Shown here: piece by piece, positions 1 to 40,419 of the stretch
Layout of the letters: each line of letters begins with the position of its first letter
Position numbering within the stretch: position 1 is the stretch's first letter
Origin: Escherichia coli
GTDB lineage: Bacteria > Pseudomonadota > Gammaproteobacteria > Enterobacterales > Enterobacteriaceae
Length of the DNA stretch: 64,000 bases
Assembly (NCBI RefSeq): GCF_003790525.1
Contig: NZ_CP033632.1
Reading direction: 5' to 3' (one strand)
Program-made: the position numbers and the translations under genes
Notes under the pieces: model-generated
Databases searched by the model: none
Seen by the model: only the letters and a program-made list of their open reading frames with translations
Told to the model about the DNA's origin: nothing

Positions 1-645
1 TGTAAATAATTGTTCAAAACTCATAAACACTCCTTTGTTAAAGGGCAGGAAGCGGTAAACGTCTCTCCCTTAGTTAAGCCATCAATCACTCGATTAGTTT
101 CTGAATGGCAATCAGCGCGTTTGCAATGGCGAGCACAGCCCTGAGAACGATGATTAACAGATTCATCATCCGTTTCTCTAGGTTGATACTGGAGGAAGTC
201 ACCGTAGCTTGCTCATACATCGCCTGTCACAACGGCTCTCTCACATTGTTGGATGTAGAGTACCTTCCCTCTACCAGAGCACTGAACACAGCACCACCCG
301 TTTGTTCAGCCAGGACTTTAATTCGTTCATCCCCAGATAGCGCAGGGGTTAGAAGCAAGGGAGACACACTGTACAGCGCCAACACAAAGATTATACAGAT
401 GCATGCATAAAATTCATTTAAAGAAATTACCATTGACAGACAATCTGAAGTCAAACTAGACAACAGGTGTCTAGTGCCATAATACTATGAGTGTTGGGTG
501 TAGAGTATCTTCCTCCAGTCAGAGCCACCAACTCAAGGCTGGAAAACACAAAAAAGCCAAATTACCAGTCGGTTTTTTTTGTGCTTGTCGTTCAGCTGTA
601 CTTCCGTTTTTTCCCCCCTTCATTGAAGAAGTAGTAGGCAGAGCA

Positions 646-3636: not shown

Positions 3637-4456
3637 GGCACTGTTGCAAAGTTAGCGATGAGGCAGCCTTTTGTCTTATTCAAAGGCCTTACATTTCAAA
3701 AACTCTGCTTACCAGGCGCATTTCGCCCAGGGGATCACCATAATAAAATGCTGAGGCCTGGCCTTTGCGTAGTGCACGCATCACCTCAATACCTTTGATG
3801 GTGGCGTAAGCCGTCTTCATGGATTTAAATCCCAGCGTGGCGTTGATTATCCGTTTCAGTTTGCCATGATCGCATTCAATCACGTTGTTCCGGTACTTAA
3901 TCTGTCGGTGTTCAACGTCAGACGGGCACCGGCCTTCGCGTTTGAGCAGAGCAAGCGCGCGACCATAGGCGGGCGCTTTATCCGTGTTGATGAATCGTGG
4001 GATCTGCCACTTCTTCACGTTGTTGAGGATTTTACCCAGAAACCGGTATGCAGCTTTGCTGTTACGACGGGAGGAGAGATAAAAATCGACAGTGCGGCCC
4101 CGGCTGTCGACGGCCCGGTACAGATACGCCCAGCGGCCATTGACCTTCACGTAGGTTTCATCCATGTGCCACGGGCAAAGATCGGAAGGGTTACGCCAGT
4201 ACCAGCGCAGCCGTTTTTCCATTTCAGGCGCATAACGCTGAACCCAGCGGTAAATCGTGGAGTGATCGACATTCACTCCGCGTTCAGCCAGCATCTCCTG
4301 CAGCTCACGGTAACTGATGCCGTATTTGCAGTACCAGCGTACGGCCCACAGAATGATGTCACGCTGAAAATGCCGGCCTTTGAATGGGTTCATGTGCAGC
4401 TCCATCAGCAAAAGGGGATGATAAGTTTATCACCACCGACTATTTGCAACAGTGCC
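3637..4456 (-). mobile_element. IS26: IS26 copy 2
   Basis: 820 bp with terminal IRs. Confidence 0.97.
3689..4411 (-). CDS. tnp26: IS26 transposase Tnp26, Asn184 allele
   Basis: ORF translation identical to copy 1. Confidence 0.95.
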   Translation of the reverse strand: MLMELHMNPFKGRHFQRDIILWAVRWYCKYGISYRELQEMLAERGVNVDHSTIYRWVQRYAPEMEKRLRWYWRNPSDLCPWHMDETYVKVNGRWAYLYRAVDSRGRTVDFYLSSRRNSKAAYRFLGKILNNVKKWQIPRFINTDKAPAYGRALALLKREGRCPSDVEHRQIKYRNNVIECDHGKLKRIINATLGFKSMKTAYATIKGIEVMRALRKGQASAFYYGDPLGEMRLVSRVFEM

Positions 4457-4517
4457 CTATAAAGAACTAAAGAAATGAAGATACAAAGATACGAATATCT
4501 GAATAAAAACAGAAAAA

Positions 4518-4637
4518 TGCGTACCCATCCACCTTTCAGTGCGTACCCATCCACCTTTCAGTGCGCAGCCATCCACCTTTCATGAAAATTACAGTGCGTA
4601 CCCATCCACCTTTCAGTGCGTACCCATCCACCTTTCA
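4518..4637. repeat. Five direct ~22-bp iterons (consensus tgcgtacccatccacctttcag) in blocks of 3 and 2
   Basis: Tandem direct repeats read directly in the sequence. Confidence 0.85.
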
Positions 4638-4806
4638 TTTTGAGGCGACAAAAAACAACACCTATCTTAATGAAATTATTGATAAAAAAACTGGCACAAT
4701 GTTTGCAGAATAAGTTAGAGTAAGTTAAAGATCTTAAAGTAGATCTACCGATCTACATTTAAGATCTTAAAAACAAGAAGTTTAATAAGCAAAAAAACAC
4801 AAAAAA

Positions 4807-4861
4807 TCTGTGGATAACTTTGCTCAAAACAAAAAATTCACACTACCTGTGGATAACTTTG
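4807..4861. promoter_or_regulatory. Two 16-bp direct repeats (ctgtggataactttgc), each containing a DnaA-box-like tgtggataa
   Basis: Repeats at 4807..4822 and 4846..4861, next to an AT-rich tract and the iterons. Confidence 0.6.
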
Positions 4862-5499
4862 CGTAAACCCAGAGGACAGATCACTCTGAACCAAGACAAC
4901 CACACATAAAAACAATATGCTCGCTTTTTAACCACTGCGCGTAATTGCCTGATGTTATCCCTGTGCTGTTCCGCTTCCTCGCTCACTAACTCGCTACACT
5001 CGGTCGTTCGGCTGCGGCGAGCGGTGTCTCCTTTCTCAAAACCAGAAGAGTTCAGATCATACGATCCGTTGATTGATCCTTTTTGGATCTTTCACTGAGA
5101 AGCCCTGAATCGCTTTCTAACGCTTTGTTCGATGTAACCATGAGGAAAACCATGTGAAATCGAAAAAATCGCTCAGAATGCGATACAGCGCGTTTTAGAG
5201 GGTATTTACAAAACAGTCGTTGCCTTGAGGAAATTTTGATCAAGATTGAACTCCTATCCGGATCATGGCAACAGATCACAGCAACAAGGCCGCTAAAAAG
5301 CGTTGAGCGGCGTTAAAAACCGTTAAACCGTAGCTGACTATAACGAAACGGGAAAAAACGCTCAGAACGCGTTACAGAGCGTTTTAAGGCGATGTCGGAA
5401 AGAGCCATACCTCACCTGTTCTGATGTTTTTCTCAACACAAGCACTTTTAAGAGTACTTTTAAAGATGCTATTATGCCAATAAGACAAGCGGAGGACTT

Positions 5500-5751
5500 A
5501 TGAGCTATCAAATTCTGACAACCACAGCGGCCAGTATTACTGACCTGAAAAAAAATCCTATGGGAACCGTAGCTGAAGGTGAAGGGGACGCTGTTGCGAT
5601 CCTGAACCGAAACGAACCGGCGTTCTATTGCGTTCCACCAAAACTTTACGCCTACTATCGGGAACTCGCTGAAGATGCTGAGTTAAACGCTGTTGCTGAT
5701 GAGCGCATGAAAAACCCGGAAATTGTGAAGGTTAACCTGGATGACCTATGA
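5500..5751 (+). CDS. Type II antitoxin (StbD/RelB-like, Phd/YefM-type), 83 aa
   Basis: Small acidic protein overlapping a RelE/ParE-like toxin gene by 11 bp. Confidence 0.65.
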   Translation: MSYQILTTTAASITDLKKNPMGTVAEGEGDAVAILNRNEPAFYCVPPKLYAYYRELAEDAELNAVADERMKNPEIVKVNLDDL

Positions 5752-6022
5752 ACTGGCTTTTGACCGCAGAGCACTGAAGGAATGGCAGAAACTCGGCCAC
5801 ACCATCCGTGAACAATTCAAAAAGAAGCTGGCAGAACGGCTGGAAAATCCACGCGTACCCGCAGCCCGGTTACATGGTCATGCTGATCGCTATAAAATCA
5901 AACTTCGTGCATCTGGCTACAGACTTGTATATCAAGTCATTGATGAGAAAGTCGTTTTACTCGTTATTGCTGTTGGAAGAAGGGAAAGCAGCGAAGTTTA
6001 TCAGATTGCAGATATGCGCTGA
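5741..6022 (+). CDS. RelE/ParE-family toxin (StbE-like), 93 aa
   Basis: Translation ...RLHGHADRYKIKLRASGYRLVYQVIDEKVVLLVIAVGRRESSEVY is typical of RelE/ParE. Confidence 0.75.
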   Translation: MTYELAFDRRALKEWQKLGHTIREQFKKKLAERLENPRVPAARLHGHADRYKIKLRASGYRLVYQVIDEKVVLLVIAVGRRESSEVYQIADMR

Positions 6023-6208
6023 ACTGAAACCCGCCCCGTAATTCGCGGCTGCAGCCGCTCAGACGCGCAGATGCTACACACCGTCACGGCGTACCGTTCG
6101 CAAGCTTACGCGCTAACTGCGAAAGGCTAATTGCGTGTTGTTAGTCCGGTAATGGGCTTTGCAGGGAGGGGGGATGTCCCTGATCTTAATTAAGCTGGTT
6201 TGTTTCCG

Positions 6209-6350
6209 GGCACTGTTGCAAAGTTAGCGATGAGGCAGCCTTTTGTCTTATTCAAAGGCCTTACATTTCAAAAACTCTGCTTACCAGGCGCATTTCGCCT
6301 AGGGGATCACCATAATAAAATGCTGAGGCCTGGCCTTTGCGTAGTGCACG
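6209..6350 (-). mobile_element. IS26: IS26 stub (142 bp of the end distal to the tnp start)
   Basis: Matches 3637..3778 with one SNP (t at 6300); homology ends abruptly at 6350. Confidence 0.85.
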
Positions 6351-6518: not shown

Positions 6519-7718
6519 TCAGGCCGGCATATACCTCAGTAGACTGATATCCCGCGCGTTTTTCTTCAGCCCTGATACATTCAGCCCCGCAATGGCCCGG
6601 CGGTATACCATCCGGCAGCCACACAGCACGCATTCGAACGGGTCACGACTCAGGAACTGTTTCACCATTTGTGCATAGCACACTTTCGCCACTGGTTCCG
6701 GTTTATCCATCCCCAGTGCACGGTACACCTGCGGCAGCTTCTCTCCACACACACGGTTGGCAAGGAACCCGAAGTACCTCACCATCTTAAAAAACTTCTC
6801 CGGGATGTGCTGTTTCAGCCTCGCGACCAGCTCACGCTGTGTCAGCGTTTCCGTCGCCGTTTCTCCCGTTTTGTGGTCCAGGTAACGGAAGCTCAGGCTT
6901 GCCCCTCCGTTGTAATGAGCCAGTCGGGAAGCCGCTATTGGTGGCTTCTTCAGATAACGACCCAGGTAGCGTGCCGTATTCCGCCCTCCGGCTGTCTTCT
7001 TCGACATGTACACATGCCAGTATTTTCCGCCGGATTTCAGCACCAGGCTTCTCCACTGTGATTCCGTCGTGATATGTGACAACGACTCCGGCATTGCCAT
7101 CCCCTCTGACCACGCTTTCAGAAGCAGCTGCCGCATATTCCACATCCACCGTGAACGCATCGCGTCTTTCAGGAAGCTCAGCTTTTTCCACTGACCATGC
7201 TTATTCAGACCTCCACAGGTTACAGACACATGTACATGCGGATGCCAGTTGAGACGACGGCCATACGTGTGGATGGCGCAGAAGATACCGGGTTCCAGCC
7301 CCCGTTTTCGGGCGGCATACAGCAGATTCTCCACCGCCAGACGGCACACGTCATTCAGCAGCCAGCGGTTGCTTTCGAACACCGGCCACAGCGTGTCCGG
7401 CAGGGTGAAGACCAGATGTACCCAGTCGCAGTCAGGAAGACGATTCAGCTGTGTTGCTGTCCACAGGTCTGTGGCCTTCTTTCCGCAGGACGGGCAGGCA
7501 CGGCTGCCGCATGAGTTGGTCAGGTACTTTACGTGCTGACAGTCCGGGTTATCACACCCGAACTCTTTTACACCCAGTATCCGTGTGCCGCAGGCCAGCA
7601 TTTTGGTGACGGCTTCAACCTCGATATCGCGCAGACCGCCCGCATCCAGGAAGGACGTCCAGCACTGGTTGGCTGTGAACAGACGTTTCAGAGGGCGGGG
7701 AGTAAAACCGGACAACAT
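6519..7718 (-). CDS. IS91-family (HUH rolling-circle) transposase, 399 aa
   Basis: N-terminal Cys cluster CDNPDCQHVKYLTNSCGSRACPSCGKK and IS91-like body, recalled not searched. Confidence 0.65.
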   Translation of the reverse strand: MLSGFTPRPLKRLFTANQCWTSFLDAGGLRDIEVEAVTKMLACGTRILGVKEFGCDNPDCQHVKYLTNSCGSRACPSCGKKATDLWTATQLNRLPDCDWVHLVFTLPDTLWPVFESNRWLLNDVCRLAVENLLYAARKRGLEPGIFCAIHTYGRRLNWHPHVHVSVTCGGLNKHGQWKKLSFLKDAMRSRWMWNMRQLLLKAWSEGMAMPESLSHITTESQWRSLVLKSGGKYWHVYMSKKTAGGRNTARYLGRYLKKPPIAASRLAHYNGGASLSFRYLDHKTGETATETLTQRELVARLKQHIPEKFFKMVRYFGFLANRVCGEKLPQVYRALGMDKPEPVAKVCYAQMVKQFLSRDPFECVLCGCRMVYRRAIAGLNVSGLKKNARDISLLRYMPA

Positions 7719-10532: not shown

Positions 10533-11352
10533 GGCACTGTTGCAAATAGTCGGTGGTGATAAACTTATCATCCCCTTTTGCTGATGGAGCTGCACATGAA
10601 CCCATTCAAAGGCCGGCATTTTCAGCGTGACATCATTCTGTGGGCCGTACGCTGGTACTGCAAATACGGCATCAGTTACCGTGAGCTGCAGGAGATGCTG
10701 GCTGAACGCGGAGTGAATGTCGATCACTCCACGATTTACCGCTGGGTTCAGCGTTATGCGCCTGAAATGGAAAAACGGCTGCGCTGGTACTGGCGTAACC
10801 CTTCCGATCTTTGCCCGTGGCACATGGATGAAACCTACGTGAAGGTCAATGGCCGCTGGGCGTATCTGTACCGGGCCGTCGACAGCCGGGGCCGCACTGT
10901 CGATTTTTATCTCTCCTCCCGTCGTAACAGCAAAGCTGCATACCGGTTTCTGGGTAAAATCCTCAACAACGTGAAGAAGTGGCAGATCCCGCGATTCATC
11001 AACACGGATAAAGCGCCCGCCTATGGTCGCGCGCTTGCTCTGCTCAAACGCGAAGGCCGGTGCCCGTCTGACGTTGAACACCGACAGATTAAGTACCGGA
11101 ACAACGTGATTGAATGCGATCATGGCAAACTGAAACGGATAATCGGCGCCACGCTGGGATTTAAATCCATGAAGACGGCTTACGCCACCATCAAAGGTAT
11201 TGAGGTGATGCGTGCACTACGCAAAGGCCAGGCCTCAGCATTTTATTATGGTGATCCCCTGGGCGAAATGCGCCTGGTAAGCAGAGTTTTTGAAATGTAA
11301 GGCCTTTGAATAAGACAAAAGGCTGCCTCATCGCTAACTTTGCAACAGTGCC
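10533..11352 (+). mobile_element. IS26: IS26 copy 3 (Gly184 allele)
   Basis: 820 bp with terminal IRs. Confidence 0.97.
10578..11300 (+). CDS. tnp26: IS26 transposase Tnp26, Gly184 allele (RIIGATLGF)
   Basis: ORF translation. Confidence 0.95.
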   Translation: MLMELHMNPFKGRHFQRDIILWAVRWYCKYGISYRELQEMLAERGVNVDHSTIYRWVQRYAPEMEKRLRWYWRNPSDLCPWHMDETYVKVNGRWAYLYRAVDSRGRTVDFYLSSRRNSKAAYRFLGKILNNVKKWQIPRFINTDKAPAYGRALALLKREGRCPSDVEHRQIKYRNNVIECDHGKLKRIIGATLGFKSMKTAYATIKGIEVMRALRKGQASAFYYGDPLGEMRLVSRVFEM

Positions 11353-16558: not shown

Positions 16559-17378
16559 GGCACTGTTGCAAATAGTCGGTGGTGATAAACTTATCATCCC
16601 CTTTTGCTGATGGAGCTGCACATGAACCCATTCAAAGGCCGGCATTTTCAGCGTGACATCATTCTGTGGGCCGTACGCTGGTACTGCAAATACGGCATCA
16701 GTTACCGTGAGCTGCAGGAGATGCTGGCTGAACGCGGAGTGAATGTCGATCACTCCACGATTTACCGCTGGGTTCAGCGTTATGCGCCTGAAATGGAAAA
16801 ACGGCTGCGCTGGTACTGGCGTAACCCTTCCGATCTTTGCCCGTGGCACATGGATGAAACCTACGTGAAGGTCAATGGCCGCTGGGCGTATCTGTACCGG
16901 GCCGTCGACAGCCGGGGCCGCACTGTCGATTTTTATCTCTCCTCCCGTCGTAACAGCAAAGCTGCATACCGGTTTCTGGGTAAAATCCTCAACAACGTGA
17001 AGAAGTGGCAGATCCCACGATTCATCAACACGGATAAAGCGCCCGCCTATGGTCGCGCGCTTGCTCTGCTCAAACGCGAAGGCCGGTGCCCGTCTGACGT
17101 TGAACACCGACAGATTAAGTACCGGAACAACGTGATTGAATGCGATCATGGCAAACTGAAACGGATAATCAACGCCACGCTGGGATTTAAATCCATGAAG
17201 ACGGCTTACGCCACCATCAAAGGTATTGAGGTGATGCGTGCACTACGCAAAGGCCAGGCCTCAGCATTTTATTATGGTGATCCCCTGGGCGAAATGCGCC
17301 TGGTAAGCAGAGTTTTTGAAATGTAAGGCCTTTGAATAAGACAAAAGGCTGCCTCATCGCTAACTTTGCAACAGTGCC
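16559..17378 (+). mobile_element. IS26: IS26 copy 4
   Basis: 820 bp with terminal IRs. Confidence 0.97.
16604..17326 (+). CDS. tnp26: IS26 transposase Tnp26, Asn184 allele
   Basis: ORF translation. Confidence 0.95.
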   Translation: MLMELHMNPFKGRHFQRDIILWAVRWYCKYGISYRELQEMLAERGVNVDHSTIYRWVQRYAPEMEKRLRWYWRNPSDLCPWHMDETYVKVNGRWAYLYRAVDSRGRTVDFYLSSRRNSKAAYRFLGKILNNVKKWQIPRFINTDKAPAYGRALALLKREGRCPSDVEHRQIKYRNNVIECDHGKLKRIINATLGFKSMKTAYATIKGIEVMRALRKGQASAFYYGDPLGEMRLVSRVFEM

Positions 17379-19084
17379 ATATGACGATGGCTGCTAAAGA
17401 GCTGCTGGAGTCACAAGGGCTGAAGGTCACGGCGCTGGCCCCCTATGGGACACAGAAAAAAGCGCTTGAAGATGATGGATTACCGGCCCGCACCGTTGCC
17501 GCTTTCCTCAAAGCGAAGGATAAAAAGCTGGATGAAAAATCAGTCGTATTCATTGATGAAGCCGGGGTTATACCCGCCCGACAGATGAAACAGCTGATGG
17601 AGGTAATCGAGAAGCATAACGCTCGCGCGGTATTCCTGGGGGATACGTCACAGACGAAAGCGGTAGAAGCCGGTAAGCCTTTTGAGCAGCTGATTAAAGC
17701 AGGTATGCAGACCAGCTACATGAAAGACATTCAGCGACAGAAGAATGAAGTTTTGCTTGAGGCGGTTAAGTATGCCGCTGAAGGTAATGCCGCGCGCGCC
17801 CTGAAAAATATCACCGGCGTGAACGAACTGAAGGAAGAAGCGCCCCGACTCGCTCAACTTGCCGATCGCTACCTGTCTCTGTCCTCAGAACAACAGGATG
17901 CCACCCTGATAATCTCTGGTACGAACGCCTCACGCAAAACCCTCAATGACTACATCCGGGGCAATCTGGGGCTTGCCGGAACCGGCGAAACGTTCACGCT
18001 ACTTGACCGCGTGGATTCGACACAGGCGGAACGCCGCGACAGCCGTTATTTCAGTAAAGGGCAAATCATTATCCCCGAACAGGATTACAAAAATGGTATG
18101 AAGCGGGGCGAGTCTTACCAGGTTCTTGATACCGGGCCGGGCAACAAATTGACGGTTGAAAGCATCAGCGGTGAGCAGATCGCTTTCAGCCCGCGTACAC
18201 ACACCAAGCTGTCTGTATACCAGGCAGTCAGCGCCGAACTGGCGCCGGGCGATAAGGTTATGGTAACGCGTAACGATAAAACGCTGGACGTTGCCAACGG
18301 CGACCGCTTCACGGTGAAAACCGTGGAGGGTGAAAAACTGACGCTTGAGGACAAAAAAGGGCGCACGGTTGAGCTGGATAAAAAACAGGCTTCTTATCTT
18401 TCCTATGCTTATGCAACCACCGTCCACAAATCCCAGGGGCTTACCTGTGATCGCGTGTTGTTCAACATAGATACCAAATCGCTTACCACTTCTAAGGACG
18501 TTTTTTATGTTGGTATTTCGCGTGCGCGTCATGAGGTGGAAATTTTTACCGACGATAAAAAATCTTTGGCATCGAGCGTGAGCCGCGACAGCCCGAAAAC
18601 CACGGCCGCAGAAATTGACCGTTTCTTTGGACTTGAGGCCAGGTTTAAGGATATTGGCCGCGATACCAGTTTAGAAACCCGATCAGCTGAAAAAGGTCTG
18701 CCAGAAGCCACGGGGGAAAGCATGGCGTTTAACCAGAAACCCGATGAACATAACATGACAACCGGCACTGATTATCAGCCGGTGAGCAACGCAGAGGACG
18801 CCTTTCATCTTAAGCAGAACCCTATGGATGATTCCGTTGGCCTGCGGCGTCATGAAGCACAGCAAAATGATGCAGAGCTGGCCCATGATTATGCTGCTGC
18901 CGACGATCAGCAGTGGAGCGCGCAGGAGTATGCCGATTACGAGCATTATGCCGAAGCATCCGACTACGACTTTGACAGCAGCATTTACGACGATTACGCC
19001 ATGCCGCAGACGTCTCAGGCGGAACAGAGCCATACCGGAAAAGAACACACCCATGAGCATGAAGAAGGGGGCCATGAAATCTGA
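17379..19084 (+). pseudogene. traI: Conjugative relaxase/helicase (TraI-like) C-terminal fragment; 5' part removed by IS26
   Basis: Reading frame starts at the IS26 boundary; helicase-like body with an acidic C-terminal tail. Confidence 0.7.
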
Positions 19085-19710
19085 TGGAGCAGATCGACAA
19101 GCGCAAGCAGGATAAACTGAAGTTCGACCGGGTAATTAATCTGGCGCACAGACTGCCGCAACCGGCGATCCATGACTTACTACGCGCGCTGATACTGCCA
19201 ATTCAGGCCGATTACTTGCTGGCCGTTGGCACGGAGGGCCAGGACGCGCGCCCGGACATGAACGAGCGCGAGTTCTTCTTCACAAAAATCATCTGGGCGA
19301 TGGATTACACGCACATGAAATCACTCAGGCTTGCAGCTGAAGATTTTCCCCTGGCGCTTGCGACGGCCAAGATCCTGCCGTGGCCGTGGGGTGAATCAAG
19401 CTACCGGAGTGCTTTAGCCGATATAGGCAGCGCTAAGGGCAATCCGTGGGTACAGGATATTAACCACCGCGTTACTTTGTGGTTGCCCTGGCGGATAGGC
19501 TTTGTACGAGGAGGGAACCATTCTATTGCCAGCGGCGTTCTGGCCGGTGAGGGTGAGGTAATACCCGATACGGTTTATGATATGCGGTATTTGCTCGATA
19601 TTGTCAGCACTGACGGGTATTACTGGTACATGAGCGGGAAGATCTGCGAGAGAGTCAGTGACTACCGTACAGCCGCCTTTTTTGAAATAGGCCGCCTGCT
19701 TACACTGTGA
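19084..19710 (+). CDS. Hypothetical protein, 208 aa, coupled to the relaxase gene
   Basis: ATGA stop/start overlap with the upstream gene; no recognised domain. Confidence 0.5.
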   Translation: MEQIDKRKQDKLKFDRVINLAHRLPQPAIHDLLRALILPIQADYLLAVGTEGQDARPDMNEREFFFTKIIWAMDYTHMKSLRLAAEDFPLALATAKILPWPWGESSYRSALADIGSAKGNPWVQDINHRVTLWLPWRIGFVRGGNHSIASGVLAGEGEVIPDTVYDMRYLLDIVSTDGYYWYMSGKICERVSDYRTAAFFEIGRLLTL

Positions 19711-19774: not shown

Positions 19775-20172
19775 TTTCATATAACCTATTTTTGTTGTTC
19801 AAGTTTGATTCCTTGGACTCTTCAGAATACAGACAGCAAATAAAGACCTTTCGTTTGAAGTATGTATTTCTTGCAGCAAAAATAATCAAAACCGCAAGAT
19901 ATGTAATCATGAAGTTGTCGGAAAACTATCCGTACAAGGGAGTGTATGAAAAATGTCTGGTATAATAAGAATATCATCAATAAAATTGAGTGTTGCTCTG
20001 TGGATAACTTGCAGAGTTTATTAAGTATCATTGCAGCAAAGATGAAATCAATGATTTATCAAAAATGATTGAAAGGTGGTTGTAAATAATGTTACAATGT
20101 GTGAGAAGCAGTCTAAATTCTTCGTGAAATAGTGATTTTTGAAGCTAATAAAAAACACACGTGGAATTTAGG
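19775..20172 (+). mobile_element. ISEcp1: ISEcp1 3' remnant with IRR and outward promoter; left boundary approximate
   Basis: Sequence ...tgttgctctgtggataacttgcagag...ttgaaa...tacaat...acacacgtggaatttagg recalled as the ISEcp1 right end; a 42-bp spacer follows. Confidence 0.8.
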
Positions 20173-23791: not shown

Positions 23792-24611
23792 GGCACTGTT
23801 GCAAAGTTAGCGATGAGGCAGCCTTTTGTCTTATTCAAAGGCCTTACATTTCAAAAACTCTGCTTACCAGGCGCATTTCGCCCAGGGGATCACCATAATA
23901 AAATGCTGAGGCCTGGCCTTTGCGTAGTGCACGCATCACCTCAATACCTTTGATGGTGGCGTAAGCCGTCTTCATGGATTTAAATCCCAGCGTGGCGCCG
24001 ATTATCCGTTTCAGTTTGCCATGATCGCATTCAATCACGTTGTTCCGGTACTTAATCTGTCGGTGTTCAACGTCAGACGGGCACCGGCCTTCGCGTTTGA
24101 GCAGAGCAAGCGCGCGACCATAGGCGGGCGCTTTATCCGTGTTGATGAATCGCGGGATCTGCCACTTCTTCACGTTGTTGAGGATTTTACCCAGAAACCG
24201 GTATGCAGCTTTGCTGTTACGACGGGAGGAGAGATAAAAATCGACAGTGCGGCCCCGGCTGTCGACGGCCCGGTACAGATACGCCCAGCGGCCATTGACC
24301 TTCACGTAGGTTTCATCCATGTGCCACGGGCAAAGATCGGAAGGGTTACGCCAGTACCAGCGCAGCCGTTTTTCCATTTCAGGCGCATAACGCTGAACCC
24401 AGCGGTAAATCGTGGAGTGATCGACATTCACTCCGCGTTCAGCCAGCATCTCCTGCAGCTCACGGTAACTGATGCCGTATTTGCAGTACCAGCGTACGGC
24501 CCACAGAATGATGTCACGCTGAAAATGCCGGCCTTTGAATGGGTTCATGTGCAGCTCCATCAGCAAAAGGGGATGATAAGTTTATCACCACCGACTATTT
24601 GCAACAGTGCC
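23792..24611 (-). mobile_element. IS26: IS26 copy 5 (Gly184 allele)
   Basis: 820 bp with terminal IRs. Confidence 0.97.
23844..24566 (-). CDS. tnp26: IS26 transposase Tnp26, Gly184 allele
   Basis: ORF translation. Confidence 0.95.
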   Translation of the reverse strand: MLMELHMNPFKGRHFQRDIILWAVRWYCKYGISYRELQEMLAERGVNVDHSTIYRWVQRYAPEMEKRLRWYWRNPSDLCPWHMDETYVKVNGRWAYLYRAVDSRGRTVDFYLSSRRNSKAAYRFLGKILNNVKKWQIPRFINTDKAPAYGRALALLKREGRCPSDVEHRQIKYRNNVIECDHGKLKRIIGATLGFKSMKTAYATIKGIEVMRALRKGQASAFYYGDPLGEMRLVSRVFEM

Positions 24612-27108: not shown

Positions 27109-27928
27109 GGCACTGTTGCAAAGTTAGCGATGAGGCAGCCTTTTGTCTTATTCAAAGGCCTTACATTTCAAAAACTCTGCTTACCAGGCGCATTTCGCCC
27201 AGGGGATCACCATAATAAAATGCTGAGGCCTGGCCTTTGCGTAGTGCACGCATCACCTCAATACCTTTGATGGTGGCGTAAGCCGTCTTCATGGATTTAA
27301 ATCCCAGCGTGGCGCCGATTATCCGTTTCAGTTTGCCATGATCGCATTCAATCACGTTGTTCCGGTACTTAATCTGTCGGTGTTCAACGTCAGACGGGCA
27401 CCGGCCTTCGCGTTTGAGCAGAGCAAGCGCGCGACCATAGGCGGGCGCTTTATCCGTGTTGATGAATCGCGGGATCTGCCACTTCTTCACGTTGTTGAGG
27501 ATTTTACCCAGAAACCGGTATGCAGCTTTGCTGTTACGACGGGAGGAGAGATAAAAATCGACAGTGCGGCCCCGGCTGTCGACGGCCCGGTACAGATACG
27601 CCCAGCGGCCATTGACCTTCACGTAGGTTTCATCCATGTGCCACGGGCAAAGATCGGAAGGGTTACGCCAGTACCAGCGCAGCCGTTTTTCCATTTCAGG
27701 CGCATAACGCTGAACCCAGCGGTAAATCGTGGAGTGATCGACATTCACTCCGCGTTCAGCCAGCATCTCCTGCAGCTCACGGTAACTGATGCCGTATTTG
27801 CAGTACCAGCGTACGGCCCACAGAATGATGTCACGCTGAAAATGCCGGCCTTTGAATGGGTTCATGTGCAGCTCCATCAGCAAAAGGGGATGATAAGTTT
27901 ATCACCACCGACTATTTGCAACAGTGCC
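27109..27928 (-). mobile_element. IS26: IS26 copy 6 (Gly184 allele)
   Basis: 820 bp with terminal IRs. Confidence 0.97.
27161..27883 (-). CDS. tnp26: IS26 transposase Tnp26, Gly184 allele
   Basis: ORF translation. Confidence 0.95.
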   Translation of the reverse strand: MLMELHMNPFKGRHFQRDIILWAVRWYCKYGISYRELQEMLAERGVNVDHSTIYRWVQRYAPEMEKRLRWYWRNPSDLCPWHMDETYVKVNGRWAYLYRAVDSRGRTVDFYLSSRRNSKAAYRFLGKILNNVKKWQIPRFINTDKAPAYGRALALLKREGRCPSDVEHRQIKYRNNVIECDHGKLKRIIGATLGFKSMKTAYATIKGIEVMRALRKGQASAFYYGDPLGEMRLVSRVFEM

Positions 27929-39225: not shown

Positions 39226-40419
39226 GTGACCTGGGACGATCACAAGAAGAATTTTGCTCGCCTGGCGCGAGATGGTGGTTACACCATCGCACAGTATGCC
39301 GCCGAGTTTAATCTTAACCCTAATACCGCACGTCGTTATCTCCGTGCCTTCAAAGAAGACACCAGGACTACGGACAGCCGCAAGCCAAATAAGCCAGTCA
39401 GGAAGCCACTAAAAAGCATGATCATTGATCACTCTAATGATCAACATGCAGGTGATCACATTTCGGCTGAAATAGCGGAAAAACAAAGAGTTAATGCCGT
39501 TGTCAGTGCCGCAGTCGAGAATGCGAAGCGCCAAAATAAGCGCATAAATGATCGTTCAGATGATCATGACGTGATCACCCGCGCCCACCGGACCTTACGT
39601 GATCGCCTGGAACGCGACACCCTGGATGATGATGGTGAACGCTTTGAATTCGAAGCTGGCGATTACCTGATAGATAACGTTGAAGCGCGGAAGGCCGCGC
39701 GCGCTATGTTGCGTCGGTCCGGGGCCGATGTTCTGGAAACCACTCTTCTGGAAAAGTCTCTTTCTCATCTCCTTATGCTGGAGAACGCCAGGGATACGTG
39801 TATTCGCCTAGTGCAGGAAATGCGCGATCAGCAAAAAGACGATGATGAAGGTACTCCGCCTGAATACCGTATCGCGAGCATGCTAAACAGCTGTTCCGCG
39901 CAGATAAGCAGCCTGATCAACACCATTTACAGCATCCGGAATAACTATCGAAAAGAAAGCCGGGAGGCGGAAAAGCACGCTTTATCTATGGGGCAAGCTG
40001 GCATTGTTAAGCTGGCATACGAACGAAAGCGTGAAAATAACTGGTCAGTGCTGGAAGCGGCTGAATTCATCGAGGCGCATGGAGGAAAAGTGCCTCCCCT
40101 GATGCTGGAGCAAATCAAAGCCGATCTGCGTGCTCCTAAGACCAATACCGATGATGAGGAAAACCAAACAGCATCTGGCGCTCCATCACTTGAAGATCTG
40201 GATAAAATCGCGCGAGAACGGGCCGCCAGCCGCCGCGCTGATGCCGCATTGTGGATTGAGCATCGTAGAGAAGAAATTGCCGATATCGTCGATACAGGTG
40301 GTTATGGTGATGTCGATGCGGAAGGCATATCAAACGAAGCATGGCTTGAACAGGATCTGGACGAAGACGAGGAGGAAGACGAAGAAGTTACCCGCAAACT
40401 GTACGGGGATGATGATTAA
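39226..40419 (+). CDS. pacA: Terminase small subunit PacA, 397 aa (GTG start)
   Basis: Translation starts [27 protein letters not shown]...; contains the pac hexamer cluster. Confidence 0.85.
39419..39577. other. pac: P1-type pac site: 4 + 3 tgatca/tgatcg hexamers
   Basis: Hexamers at 39419, 39426, 39438, 39453 and 39549, 39561, 39572. Confidence 0.8.

What the first reader, a model, noticed from the sequence alone, without database searches (positions are those of the whole stretch)
4457..4870. Orphan iteron-type replication origin with no rep gene
Five 22-bp iterons, an AT-rich tract and two DnaA-box repeats form a typical iteron-plasmid origin, but the side where the initiator gene should lie is occupied by IS26 (3637..4456), and the other side is a toxin-antitoxin pair. 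The origin is therefore probably a non-functional relic unless an initiator is supplied in trans. I could not assign the iteron sequence to an incompatibility group from memory.
Basis: partly seen in the sequence, partly recalled or inferred. Interest (0 to 1): 0.45.

Follow-up and report, generated by a model that had tools for sequence, protein, structure and literature searches.

The report
Orphaned IncX1 plasmid origin beside IS26
This is the replication origin of a common IncX1 resistance plasmid whose initiator gene was cut off by the insertion sequence IS26; it now rides as passenger DNA in a resistance region of a P1-like phage-plasmid, which is an ordinary, already documented kind of plasmid scar.

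Summary
Window 4457-4870 holds five 22-bp iterons, an AT-rich tract and two perfect DnaA boxes. The stretch is 100% identical to the origin of typed IncX1 (pOLA52-type) plasmids.

In intact relatives the initiator gene pir lies 191 bp to the left of window position 4457. pir encodes a Rep_3 protein (E = 1e-51 to R6K pi, PDB 2NRA). Here a complete IS26 (3637-4456, no target duplication) replaces pir, its promoter/operator with two further iteron-like sites, and the neighbouring repX, bis-like and ddp3 genes. No pir-like coding capacity exists anywhere in the 64-kb window.

The IncX1 fragment runs 4457-6208. It holds the origin, a ColE1-like 77-bp segment and the stbDE toxin-antitoxin pair, and it ends at a 142-bp IS26 stub. 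It belongs to a known IS26/IS1294/IS50/aph(3')-IIa/oqxAB mosaic that carries pir in F33/IncN hybrid plasmids and lacks it in IncHI2 plasmids such as pSTM6-275.

The origin is therefore inactive in cis. By analogy with R6K gamma ori it is probably still activatable by IncX1 pi supplied in trans, and a weak IncX1 incompatibility determinant. Already known; low interest.

The parts
3637..4456 (-). Complete IS26 (820 bp; transposase on the - strand) that replaces pir and everything beyond it
   Evidence: Exact inverted repeats GGCACTGTTGCAAA...TTTGCAACAGTGCC. It is 100% identical to other IS26 copies in the window. The flanks gtcgagat and ctataaag differ, so there is no 8-bp target duplication, consistent with IS26-mediated deletion or recombination rather than simple insertion.
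4457..4517 (.). 61-bp A-rich leader between the breakpoint and the iterons; the remnant of the pir-proximal side of the origin
   Evidence: Identical to L002 5001-5061. Conserved in 7 IncX1 origins. TRF finds a weak 8-bp periodicity.
4518..4583 (+). Iterons 1-3 (22 bp each, head to tail)
   Evidence: Aligned with the iterons of intact IncX1 replicons.
4595..4638 (+). Iterons 4-5, after an 11-bp spacer
4639..4808 (.). AT-rich tract (26-27% GC), the presumed DNA-unwinding region; it contains a 41-bp palindrome with four GATC sites at 4728-4768
   Evidence: Composition. The hairpin folds at -16 kcal/mol with z = -6.8. GATC sites lie at 4730, 4742, 4750 and 4763 against 5 per kb on average. The palindrome is invariant in 6 of 7 IncX1 origins, with a 1-bp deletion in the seventh.
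4792..4867 (-). Two 37-nt direct repeats, each with a perfect DnaA box (TTATCCACA at 4809-4817 and 4848-4856)
   Evidence: The boxes are conserved while adjacent spacer bases vary between lineages.
4965..5041 (.). 77-bp segment shared with ColE1-type plasmids; a candidate single-strand initiation / primosome assembly signal (inferred)
   Evidence: 90-96% identity to thousands of 2-9-kb mobilizable plasmids. In pSF203-5 it lies about 75-150 bp downstream of the replication start inferred from RNAI. ColE1 ssiA/n'-pas is exposed as Pol I extends from the RNA/DNA switch (PMC3167613); its distance of roughly 100-200 bp is recalled from memory. Also conserved next to the IncX4 origin.
5055..5089 (.). 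Second cluster of four GATC sites
   Evidence: GATC at 5055, 5063, 5075 and 5086. Conserved in IncX1 variants and IncX4.
5500..6022 (+). stbD (5500-5751) and stbE (5741-6022) toxin-antitoxin pair of the IncX backbone
   Evidence: RelE_StbE TIGR02385 and ParE_toxin PF05016. RefSeq annotation in relatives. stbDE of IncX plasmid R485 is cited in PMC3402527.
6209..6350 (+). 142-bp IS26 stub, truncated by IS1294; the right-hand boundary of the IncX1 fragment 4457-6208
   Evidence: 99.3% to IS26 positions 1-142. Same IS26/IS1294 boundary as described in PMC6052338. The IS91-family transposase is at 6519-7718.

Best explanation
Window 4457-4870, functionally extending to about 5130, is the vegetative origin of an IncX1 (pOLA52-type) plasmid. 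It is the counterpart of R6K gamma ori.

In an intact IncX1 replicon the pi-like initiator is encoded by pir, immediately to the left. It binds the 22-bp iterons. Together with host DnaA at the two DnaA boxes it opens the adjacent AT-rich tract, and it represses its own promoter through two further iteron-like sites.

Here IS26 has removed pir, its promoter/operator and the neighbouring repX, bis-like and ddp3 genes. What remains is a 1.75-kb IncX1 fragment (origin plus stbDE) inside an IS26-rich multiresistance region carried by a P1-like phage-plasmid.

Shown:
- the identity of the DNA;
- the breakpoint;
- the absence of any pi-like gene in the window;
- the same module with pir, and without pir, in other plasmids.

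Inferred:
- the origin cannot fire on its own, and the carrier replicates from its own replicon outside the window;
- because every element to the right of the break is intact, the origin should still bind IncX1 pi, and probably fire, if pi is supplied in trans by a co-resident IncX1 plasmid;
- it should act as a weak IncX1 incompatibility (iteron titration/handcuffing) determinant.
For: Identity of the DNA:
- 100% identity over 444 bp to 868 PLSDB records, including small plasmids typed IncX1.
- 100% identity over the whole 1751-bp fragment to L001, L002 and L009.

Position relative to the initiator:
- In intact relatives the repeats lie directly upstream of a Rep_3 gene (Pfam Rep3_N + Rep3_C).
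- That protein matches R6K pi, PDB 2NRA, at E = 1.2e-51 over 263 residues.
- The literature states that IncX1 repX/pir normally has five upstream iterons (PMC3402527).

Conserved architecture:
- IncX4 and another IncX variant show the same layout, with 22-bp iterons in 6-7 copies upstream of the pi-like gene.
- Across seven IncX1 origins the iterons, GATC palindrome and DnaA boxes are conserved while spacers vary.

Breakpoint and loss:
- The breakpoint lies exactly at the IS26 end, 191 bp before the pir ATG, and removes two iteron-like sites.
- No pir or repX is found in the window.

Known context:
- The same IS26/IS1294/IS50/aph(3')-IIa/oqxAB module carries pir in pHNAH8160R and F33 plasmids (PMC6052338, PMC10654068).
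- It lacks pir in IncHI2 pSTM6-275 and relatives.

Precedent and carrier:
- R6K gamma-ori plasmids replicate with pi supplied in trans (PMC3163176).
- The carrier backbone is P1-like, with c1, pacAB, cre and phd/doc.
Against: - No experiment here shows origin activity, pi binding or incompatibility for this fragment.
- The minimal IncX1 origin has not been defined in the papers I could read. The lost 191 bp, with two iteron-like sites and one near-DnaA box, could be needed in cis.
- No strict IHF consensus site was found, although R6K gamma ori uses IHF.
- Only 64 kb of the replicon and genome is visible, so a pir gene elsewhere cannot be excluded.
- The carrier's own replicon was not seen in the window.
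Confidence: 0.9

Rival explanations
1. The orphan origin is not mere debris. It is retained because it helps its carrier in one of two ways. As an iteron decoy it would lower the copy number of, or displace, competing IncX1 plasmids. As a dormant second origin it would raise the copy number of the resistance plasmid when an IncX1 plasmid supplies pi.
For: - All cis elements to the right of the break are intact and 100% identical to functional replicons.
- Orphan copies recur in several plasmid backbones: P1-like here, IncFIB/FII p2EC1-2, and many IncHI2.
- There are at least two different IS26 breakpoints only 10 bp apart.
- Iteron arrays are established incompatibility determinants (review PMC4980987).
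Against: - The perfect identity is as well explained by recent origin.
- The fragment is physically linked to stbDE and oqxAB, which can explain its spread by hitch-hiking.
- Orphans are a small minority: about 27 IS26-junction records against 657 with an intact pir-ori junction.
- Five iterons on a low-copy P1-like plasmid would titrate little pi.
- No co-occurrence or phenotype data were obtainable.
Confidence: 0.1
2. The repeats are a partition centromere or a pure copy-control/incompatibility array, like P1 incA or F incC, and not the site of initiation.
For: Direct repeats of about 20 bp also occur in partition sites and control arrays.
Against: - In intact IncX1 plasmids the array lies between the pir promoter and an AT-rich tract with DnaA boxes, the canonical origin layout.
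- There is no second array downstream of pir.
- parFG and parA lie several kb away on the far side of ddp3.
- The same layout is seen in IncX4, whose iterons share the AGCTCTCATGTTT core that I recall from R6K gamma-ori iterons (the R6K sequence is from memory).
Confidence: 0.03
3. It is the plasmid origin (oriR) of the P1-like carrier itself. P1 oriR also has five iterons, GATC-rich AT-rich DNA and two DnaA boxes.
For: The layout resembles P1 oriR superficially (from memory; five 19-bp iterons per PMC4980987), and the backbone of the window is P1-like.
Against: - The period is 22 bp, not 19.
- The DNA is 100% identical to IncX1 plasmids that encode a pi homologue next to it.
- It lies inside an IS26-bounded insert, not in the P1 backbone.
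Confidence: 0.01

Closest known systems
IncX1 replication origin of pOLA52-type plasmids (pir/repX with five upstream iterons)
   Same: The DNA is 100% identical to typed IncX1 plasmids over the origin and stbDE. It has five 22-bp iterons in a 3+2 arrangement, the same AT-rich tract and the same two DnaA boxes (PMC3402527).
   Different: Missing here are pir, 191 bp of its upstream region with two iteron-like operator sites, and repX, the bis-like gene and ddp3. All are replaced by IS26.
R6K (IncX2) gamma ori with pi protein
   Same: The initiator family is the same: IncX1 Pir matches R6K pi at E = 1e-51. Both have a 22-bp iteron period, an adjacent AT-rich segment, DnaA boxes and autoregulatory iteron-like sites at the pir promoter. 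R6K gamma ori works with pi supplied in trans (PMC3163176, PMC4980987).
   Different: There are five iterons instead of seven, and the iteron sequence differs. There is a GATC palindrome in the AT-rich tract. No strict IHF consensus was found. No experimental work on this origin was found.
IncX1 segment of F33:A-:B- / IncN hybrid plasmids (ddp3-bis-repX-pir-stbDE bounded by IS26 and IS1294)
   Same: The right-hand boundary is the same (IS26 stub / IS1294), as is the downstream IS50-aph(3')-IIa-Tn6010(oqxAB) array (PMC6052338, PMC10654068).
   Different: Those plasmids keep pir and repX. The window has the further-deleted form that starts inside the pir-ori intergenic region.
Orphan IncX1 ori-stbDE module of IncHI2 plasmids (pSTM6-275 family) and of p2EC1-2
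   Same: IS26 abuts the origin, pir is absent, and the downstream genes are the same. p2EC1-2 has the identical junction base.
   Different: The IncHI2 copies keep 10 bp more (GATTAGAGCA) at the junction. p2EC1-2 diverges by 2.9% beyond the iterons. The carrier backbones differ.

Membership tests
IncX1 vegetative origin | Nucleotide identity to the pir-proximal intergenic region of plasmids typed IncX1 | tested here: met
   100% over 444 bp and over 1751 bp to pESBL_DR28b (typed IncX1) and others.
IncX1 vegetative origin | Array of 22-bp direct repeats (normally five) upstream of pir/repX | tested here: met
   Five iterons. The literature norm of five is in PMC3402527. The range in relatives is 3-6.
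IncX1 vegetative origin | Cognate initiator gene pir encoded next to the iterons (a complete replicon) | tested here: not met
   IS26 replaces it. There is no pir or repX signal in the window by tblastn or by a Rep_3 profile.
IncX1 vegetative origin | Supports pi-dependent replication | not testable with these tools
   Needs a minireplicon assay with IncX1 pi supplied in trans.
R6K gamma-ori-type, pi (Rep_3)-dependent iteron origin | Initiator of the relatives is a homologue of R6K pi | tested here: met
   E = 1.2e-51 to PDB 2NRA chain C. Pfam Rep3_N and Rep3_C.
R6K gamma-ori-type, pi (Rep_3)-dependent iteron origin | Iterons flanked by an AT-rich segment and DnaA box(es) | tested here: met
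R6K gamma-ori-type, pi (Rep_3)-dependent iteron origin | IHF binding sites flanking the iterons | tested here: inconclusive
   No match to WATCAANNNNTTR in 4400-5200. A consensus scan cannot exclude weaker sites.
Plasmid partition centromere | Repeats adjacent to, and bound by the product of, a par operon | tested here: not met
   In intact relatives parFG and parA lie beyond ddp3, several kb from the repeats, and the repeats abut pir. Binding itself was not testable.
P1 oriR (origin of the P1-like carrier) | 19-bp iterons next to P1 repA, within the P1 backbone | tested here: not met
   The period is 22 bp. The DNA is IncX1 and lies inside an IS26-bounded insert.
IS26-mediated deletion/rearrangement product | Complete IS26 abutting truncated foreign DNA without an 8-bp target duplication | tested here: met
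   820-bp IS26 with flanks gtcgagat and ctataaag. Alternative breakpoints lie 10 bp apart in other plasmids.

The most novel reading that the evidence does not exclude
Orphan IncX1 origins could be active players rather than scars. They might be selected on unrelated plasmids (P1-like, IncHI2, IncF) as iteron decoys that destabilise competing IncX1 plasmids. Alternatively they could be pi-inducible second origins that amplify the resistance plasmid when an IncX1 plasmid enters the cell.
Probability: 0.1. Interest if true: 0.45.

Novelty: already known. Interest (0 to 1): 0.12.

Why it matters
Mainly for annotation and typing. The fragment is an IncX1 origin without its initiator, so it should not be read as an IncX1 replicon.

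It documents how IS26 erodes captured plasmid backbones inside resistance regions. Here the host is a P1-like phage-plasmid carrying oqxAB, aph(3')-IIa, blaCTX-M, tet(A) and mer.

A practical consequence to keep in mind: the intact iterons could interact with pi from a co-resident IncX1 plasmid, through incompatibility or extra initiation. The retained stbDE pair may stabilise the carrier.

Tried and rejected
- **pir or repX elsewhere in the window.** tblastn and a Rep_3 profile over all stop-to-stop frames found nothing.
- **P1 oriR of the carrier.** Rejected on period and identity.
- **Partition site.** Rejected on synteny in intact relatives.
- **Known RNA families.** An Rfam scan of the whole window found nothing in the region.
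- **IHF consensus.** No match.
- **Hairpins in the ColE1-like segment.** Folding it as single-stranded DNA gave no significant structure (z = +0.9 and +1.8). The primosome-site reading therefore rests on homology and position only.
- **DnaA box at 19999 plus an iteron-like 14-mer at 20070.** Checked; it lies in the ISEcp1 remnant upstream of blaCTX-M and has no repeats, so it is chance.
- **Source record of the window.** Not found. The best matches are mosaic and none is full-length in PLSDB or in the complete E. coli genomes. The rest of the replicon could therefore not be inspected.

Full report
**1. Observation**

The region is as described.
- Five 22-bp direct repeats (consensus TGCGTACCCATCCACCTTTCAG) lie at 4518-4583 (three, head to tail) and 4595-4638 (two), separated by an 11-bp spacer.
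- Their 14-bp core occurs five times exactly. Only 0.39 matches are expected in the whole window even with two mismatches allowed.
- To the right, GC falls to 26-27% over about 4650-4850.
- Two perfect DnaA boxes (TTATCCACA, - strand) lie at 4809-4817 and 4848-4856. Each is embedded in one unit of a 37-nt direct repeat. There are four perfect boxes in the 64 kb against 0.28 expected.
- IS26 is exactly 3637-4456, 820 bp with intact terminal repeats.
- stbD (5500-5751) and stbE (5741-6022) form a RelE/ParE-type pair.

**2. Identity**

The 444 bp of the finding match 868 plasmid records, 203 of them at 99% identity or more. Small plasmids among them are typed IncX1, for example pESBL_DR28b.

In these intact plasmids the order is ddp3, a bis-like ORF, a second Rep_3 gene (repX), pir, then this intergenic region, then stbDE.
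- Both initiator genes carry Pfam Rep3_N and Rep3_C.
- The pir product matches R6K pi (PDB 2NRA) at E = 1.2e-51 over 263 residues.
- The literature on IncX1 plasmids states that the region upstream of repX/pir normally holds five iterons, and that stbDE is the IncX addiction module (PMC3402527).

The element is therefore the IncX1 counterpart of R6K gamma ori.

**3. What is missing**

Aligning the window with intact plasmids puts the breakpoint exactly at the IS26 end. Window 4457 equals L002 5001, and the pir start codon is at L002 4809.

The lost 191 bp contain two further iteron-like sites (GGTTTATCCACCTTAT and TGCGCAGGTATCCACCTTTTAA). They are conserved in other IncX1 replicons. By analogy with R6K they are the autoregulatory operator of the pir promoter (inference).

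There is no target-site duplication around this IS26 (gtcgagat versus ctataaag). That fits IS26-mediated adjacent deletion or recombination.

No pir- or repX-like coding capacity exists anywhere in the window. The best tblastn E-values are about 1. A profile of four IncX pi-like proteins against all 461 stop-to-stop frames gives nothing below E = 0.08.

**4. Extent and conservation**

The IncX1-derived DNA runs from 4457 to 6208 and is 100% identical to L001, L002 and L009. It ends at a 142-bp IS26 stub (6209-6350) cut by IS1294.

Seven IncX1 origins were aligned.
- Iteron number is 3, 5 or 6.
- The 41-bp palindrome with four GATC sites (4728-4768; hairpin z = -6.8) is invariant in six of them, with a 1-bp deletion in the seventh.
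- Most have two DnaA boxes. One lineage has lost one 39-bp unit.
- The differences between lineages fall in spacers, not in these motifs.

IncX4 and another IncX variant have the same layout, with 22-bp repeats in 6-7 copies upstream of their pi-like genes. This conservation of architecture supports the origin assignment. It argues against a partition site, since parFG and parA lie kilobases away.

**5. Context**

The fragment is part of a published mosaic.
- In F33:A-:B- and IncN hybrid plasmids, a 4.9-kb segment ddp3-bis-repX-pir-stbDE is bounded by IS26 and IS1294. It is followed by IS50, aph(3')-IIa and Tn6010 (oqxAB) (PMC6052338, PMC10654068; seen in L008).
- The window has the same right-hand structure, but IS26 has eaten further in.
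- The pir-less form also exists in about two dozen IncHI2 plasmids, such as pSTM6-275. There IS26 sits 10 bp further left.
- IncFIB/FII plasmid p2EC1-2 has the identical junction base. Its first 208 bp are identical and the rest is 2.9% divergent, which indicates a mosaic.

Rough counts:
- In PLSDB, 743 records hold at least 80% of the origin probe, 657 keep the pir-ori junction, and 27 have IS26 abutting the origin.
- In complete E. coli genomes, 532 of 5,426 have some match to pir plus origin, and 429 have it intact.

The rest of the window:
- It carries six full IS26 copies.
- Its resistance genes include oqxAB, aph(3')-IIa, blaCTX-M, tet(A) and mer.
- Its backbone at about 28-46 kb is P1-like, with c1, pacAB, cre and phd/doc.

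**6. Mechanism**

*Shown:* this is IncX1 origin DNA without its initiator gene.

*Inferred from the R6K paradigm* (PMC4980987, PMC3163176):
- Without pi the origin cannot fire, so the carrier must replicate from its own replicon, which is not in the window.
- With pi from a co-resident IncX1 plasmid, the five intact iterons, the AT-rich tract and the DnaA boxes should bind pi and DnaA. They would probably initiate.
- They should also add to iteron-mediated copy control, giving weak incompatibility.
- stbDE may still stabilise the carrier.

None of this could be tested here.

**7. Rivals**

- An adaptive decoy or inducible second origin is not excluded. The data do not require it, because recency and hitch-hiking with stbDE and oqxAB explain them.
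- A partition or pure control array is contradicted by synteny.
- P1 oriR is contradicted by the 22-bp period and by sequence identity.
- Chance is excluded by the statistics and the database matches.

**8. Side observation**

Window 4965-5041 is 90-96% identical to a segment of thousands of small ColE1-type plasmids. In one of them it lies about 75-150 bp downstream of the replication start inferred from RNAI. In ColE1, ssiA / n'-pas is exposed there as Pol I extends from the RNA/DNA switch (PMC3167613); its distance of roughly 100-200 bp is recalled from memory. It is also conserved beside the IncX4 origin. No significant hairpin was predicted, so this remains a lead.

**9. Verdict**

The unnamed group is IncX1. 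The element and its truncated occurrences are already known, so interest is low.

Noticed in passing
window 4965-5041: A 77-bp segment is 90-96% identical to thousands of small ColE1-type mobilizable plasmids and 88% identical to the region beside the IncX4 origin. In pSF203-5 it sits about 75-150 bp downstream of the replication start inferred from RNAI, which is where ColE1 ssiA/n'-pas lies. It may be a primosome-loading signal linked to the IncX origin.
   Followed up: partly
window 4728-4768 and 5055-5089: A 41-bp near-perfect palindrome carries four GATC sites inside the AT-rich tract (hairpin z = -6.8) and is invariant in 6 of 7 IncX1 origins, with a 1-bp deletion in the seventh. A second cluster of four GATC sites lies 300 bp to the right. 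This suggests Dam/SeqA-related control, as at oriC and P1 oriR (untested).
   Followed up: partly
window 5156-5197 and 5345-5386: Two 42-nt direct repeats (83% identical, 189 bp apart), each with an internal dyad (AACGCTC...GAGCGTT), lie between the origin and stbDE. Their function is unknown.
   Followed up: no
L008 10141-10975, L010 1310-2250, L011 and L012 1710-2650: Iteron copy number in intact IncX1 replicons is polymorphic through whole 22-bp unit gains and losses: 3 (2+1), 5 (3+2) or 6 (4+2). One lineage has also lost one of the two DnaA-box repeat units.
   Followed up: yes
window 4456/4457; L003 20200/20201; L009 about 6200-6211: p2EC1-2 has the identical IS26|origin junction, with 0 mismatches in the first 208 bp and then 38 in 1350 bp, a recombinant mosaic. 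IncHI2 plasmids (pSTM6-275 family) have IS26 10 bp further left. There are therefore at least two breakpoints within 10 bp.
   Followed up: partly
L002 3107-3949 (not in the window): Intact IncX1 relatives encode a second Rep_3 protein (repX, 280 aa) immediately downstream of pir, with an extra N-terminal segment of about 70 residues. Per PMC6052338 it is absent from pOLA52 itself.
   Followed up: no
window 872-27928: Six complete IS26 copies (872-1691, 3637-4456, 10533-11352, 16559-17378, 23792-24611, 27109-27928) plus a 142-bp stub (6209-6350) partition a resistance region. The region holds IS6100, IS1294, IS50, aph(3')-IIa, Tn6010 oqxAB and a blaCTX-M / IS903 / iroN unit with an ISEcp1 remnant.
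   Followed up: partly
window about 27.9-46 kb: The backbone between the two resistance regions is P1-like phage-plasmid DNA (c1 repressor 41928-42779, pacAB 39226-41903, cre-like integrase 43933-44964, lpa, phd/doc by annotation of relatives). The window is therefore part of a multiresistant phage-plasmid.
   Followed up: partly
window 494-581 (+): Rfam match to AgrB (RF02891, 51.8 bits, gathering score 40), an antisense RNA of a DinQ-like type I toxin system. A relative annotates DinQ-like toxin genes (dqlB) in the corresponding region.
   Followed up: no
window 17366-19710: An ORF with a TraI/TraA-like relaxase-helicase C-terminal part (572 aa) starts right at an IS26 end and is followed by a DUF6710 gene. 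This is probably another truncated plasmid-backbone fragment.
   Followed up: no
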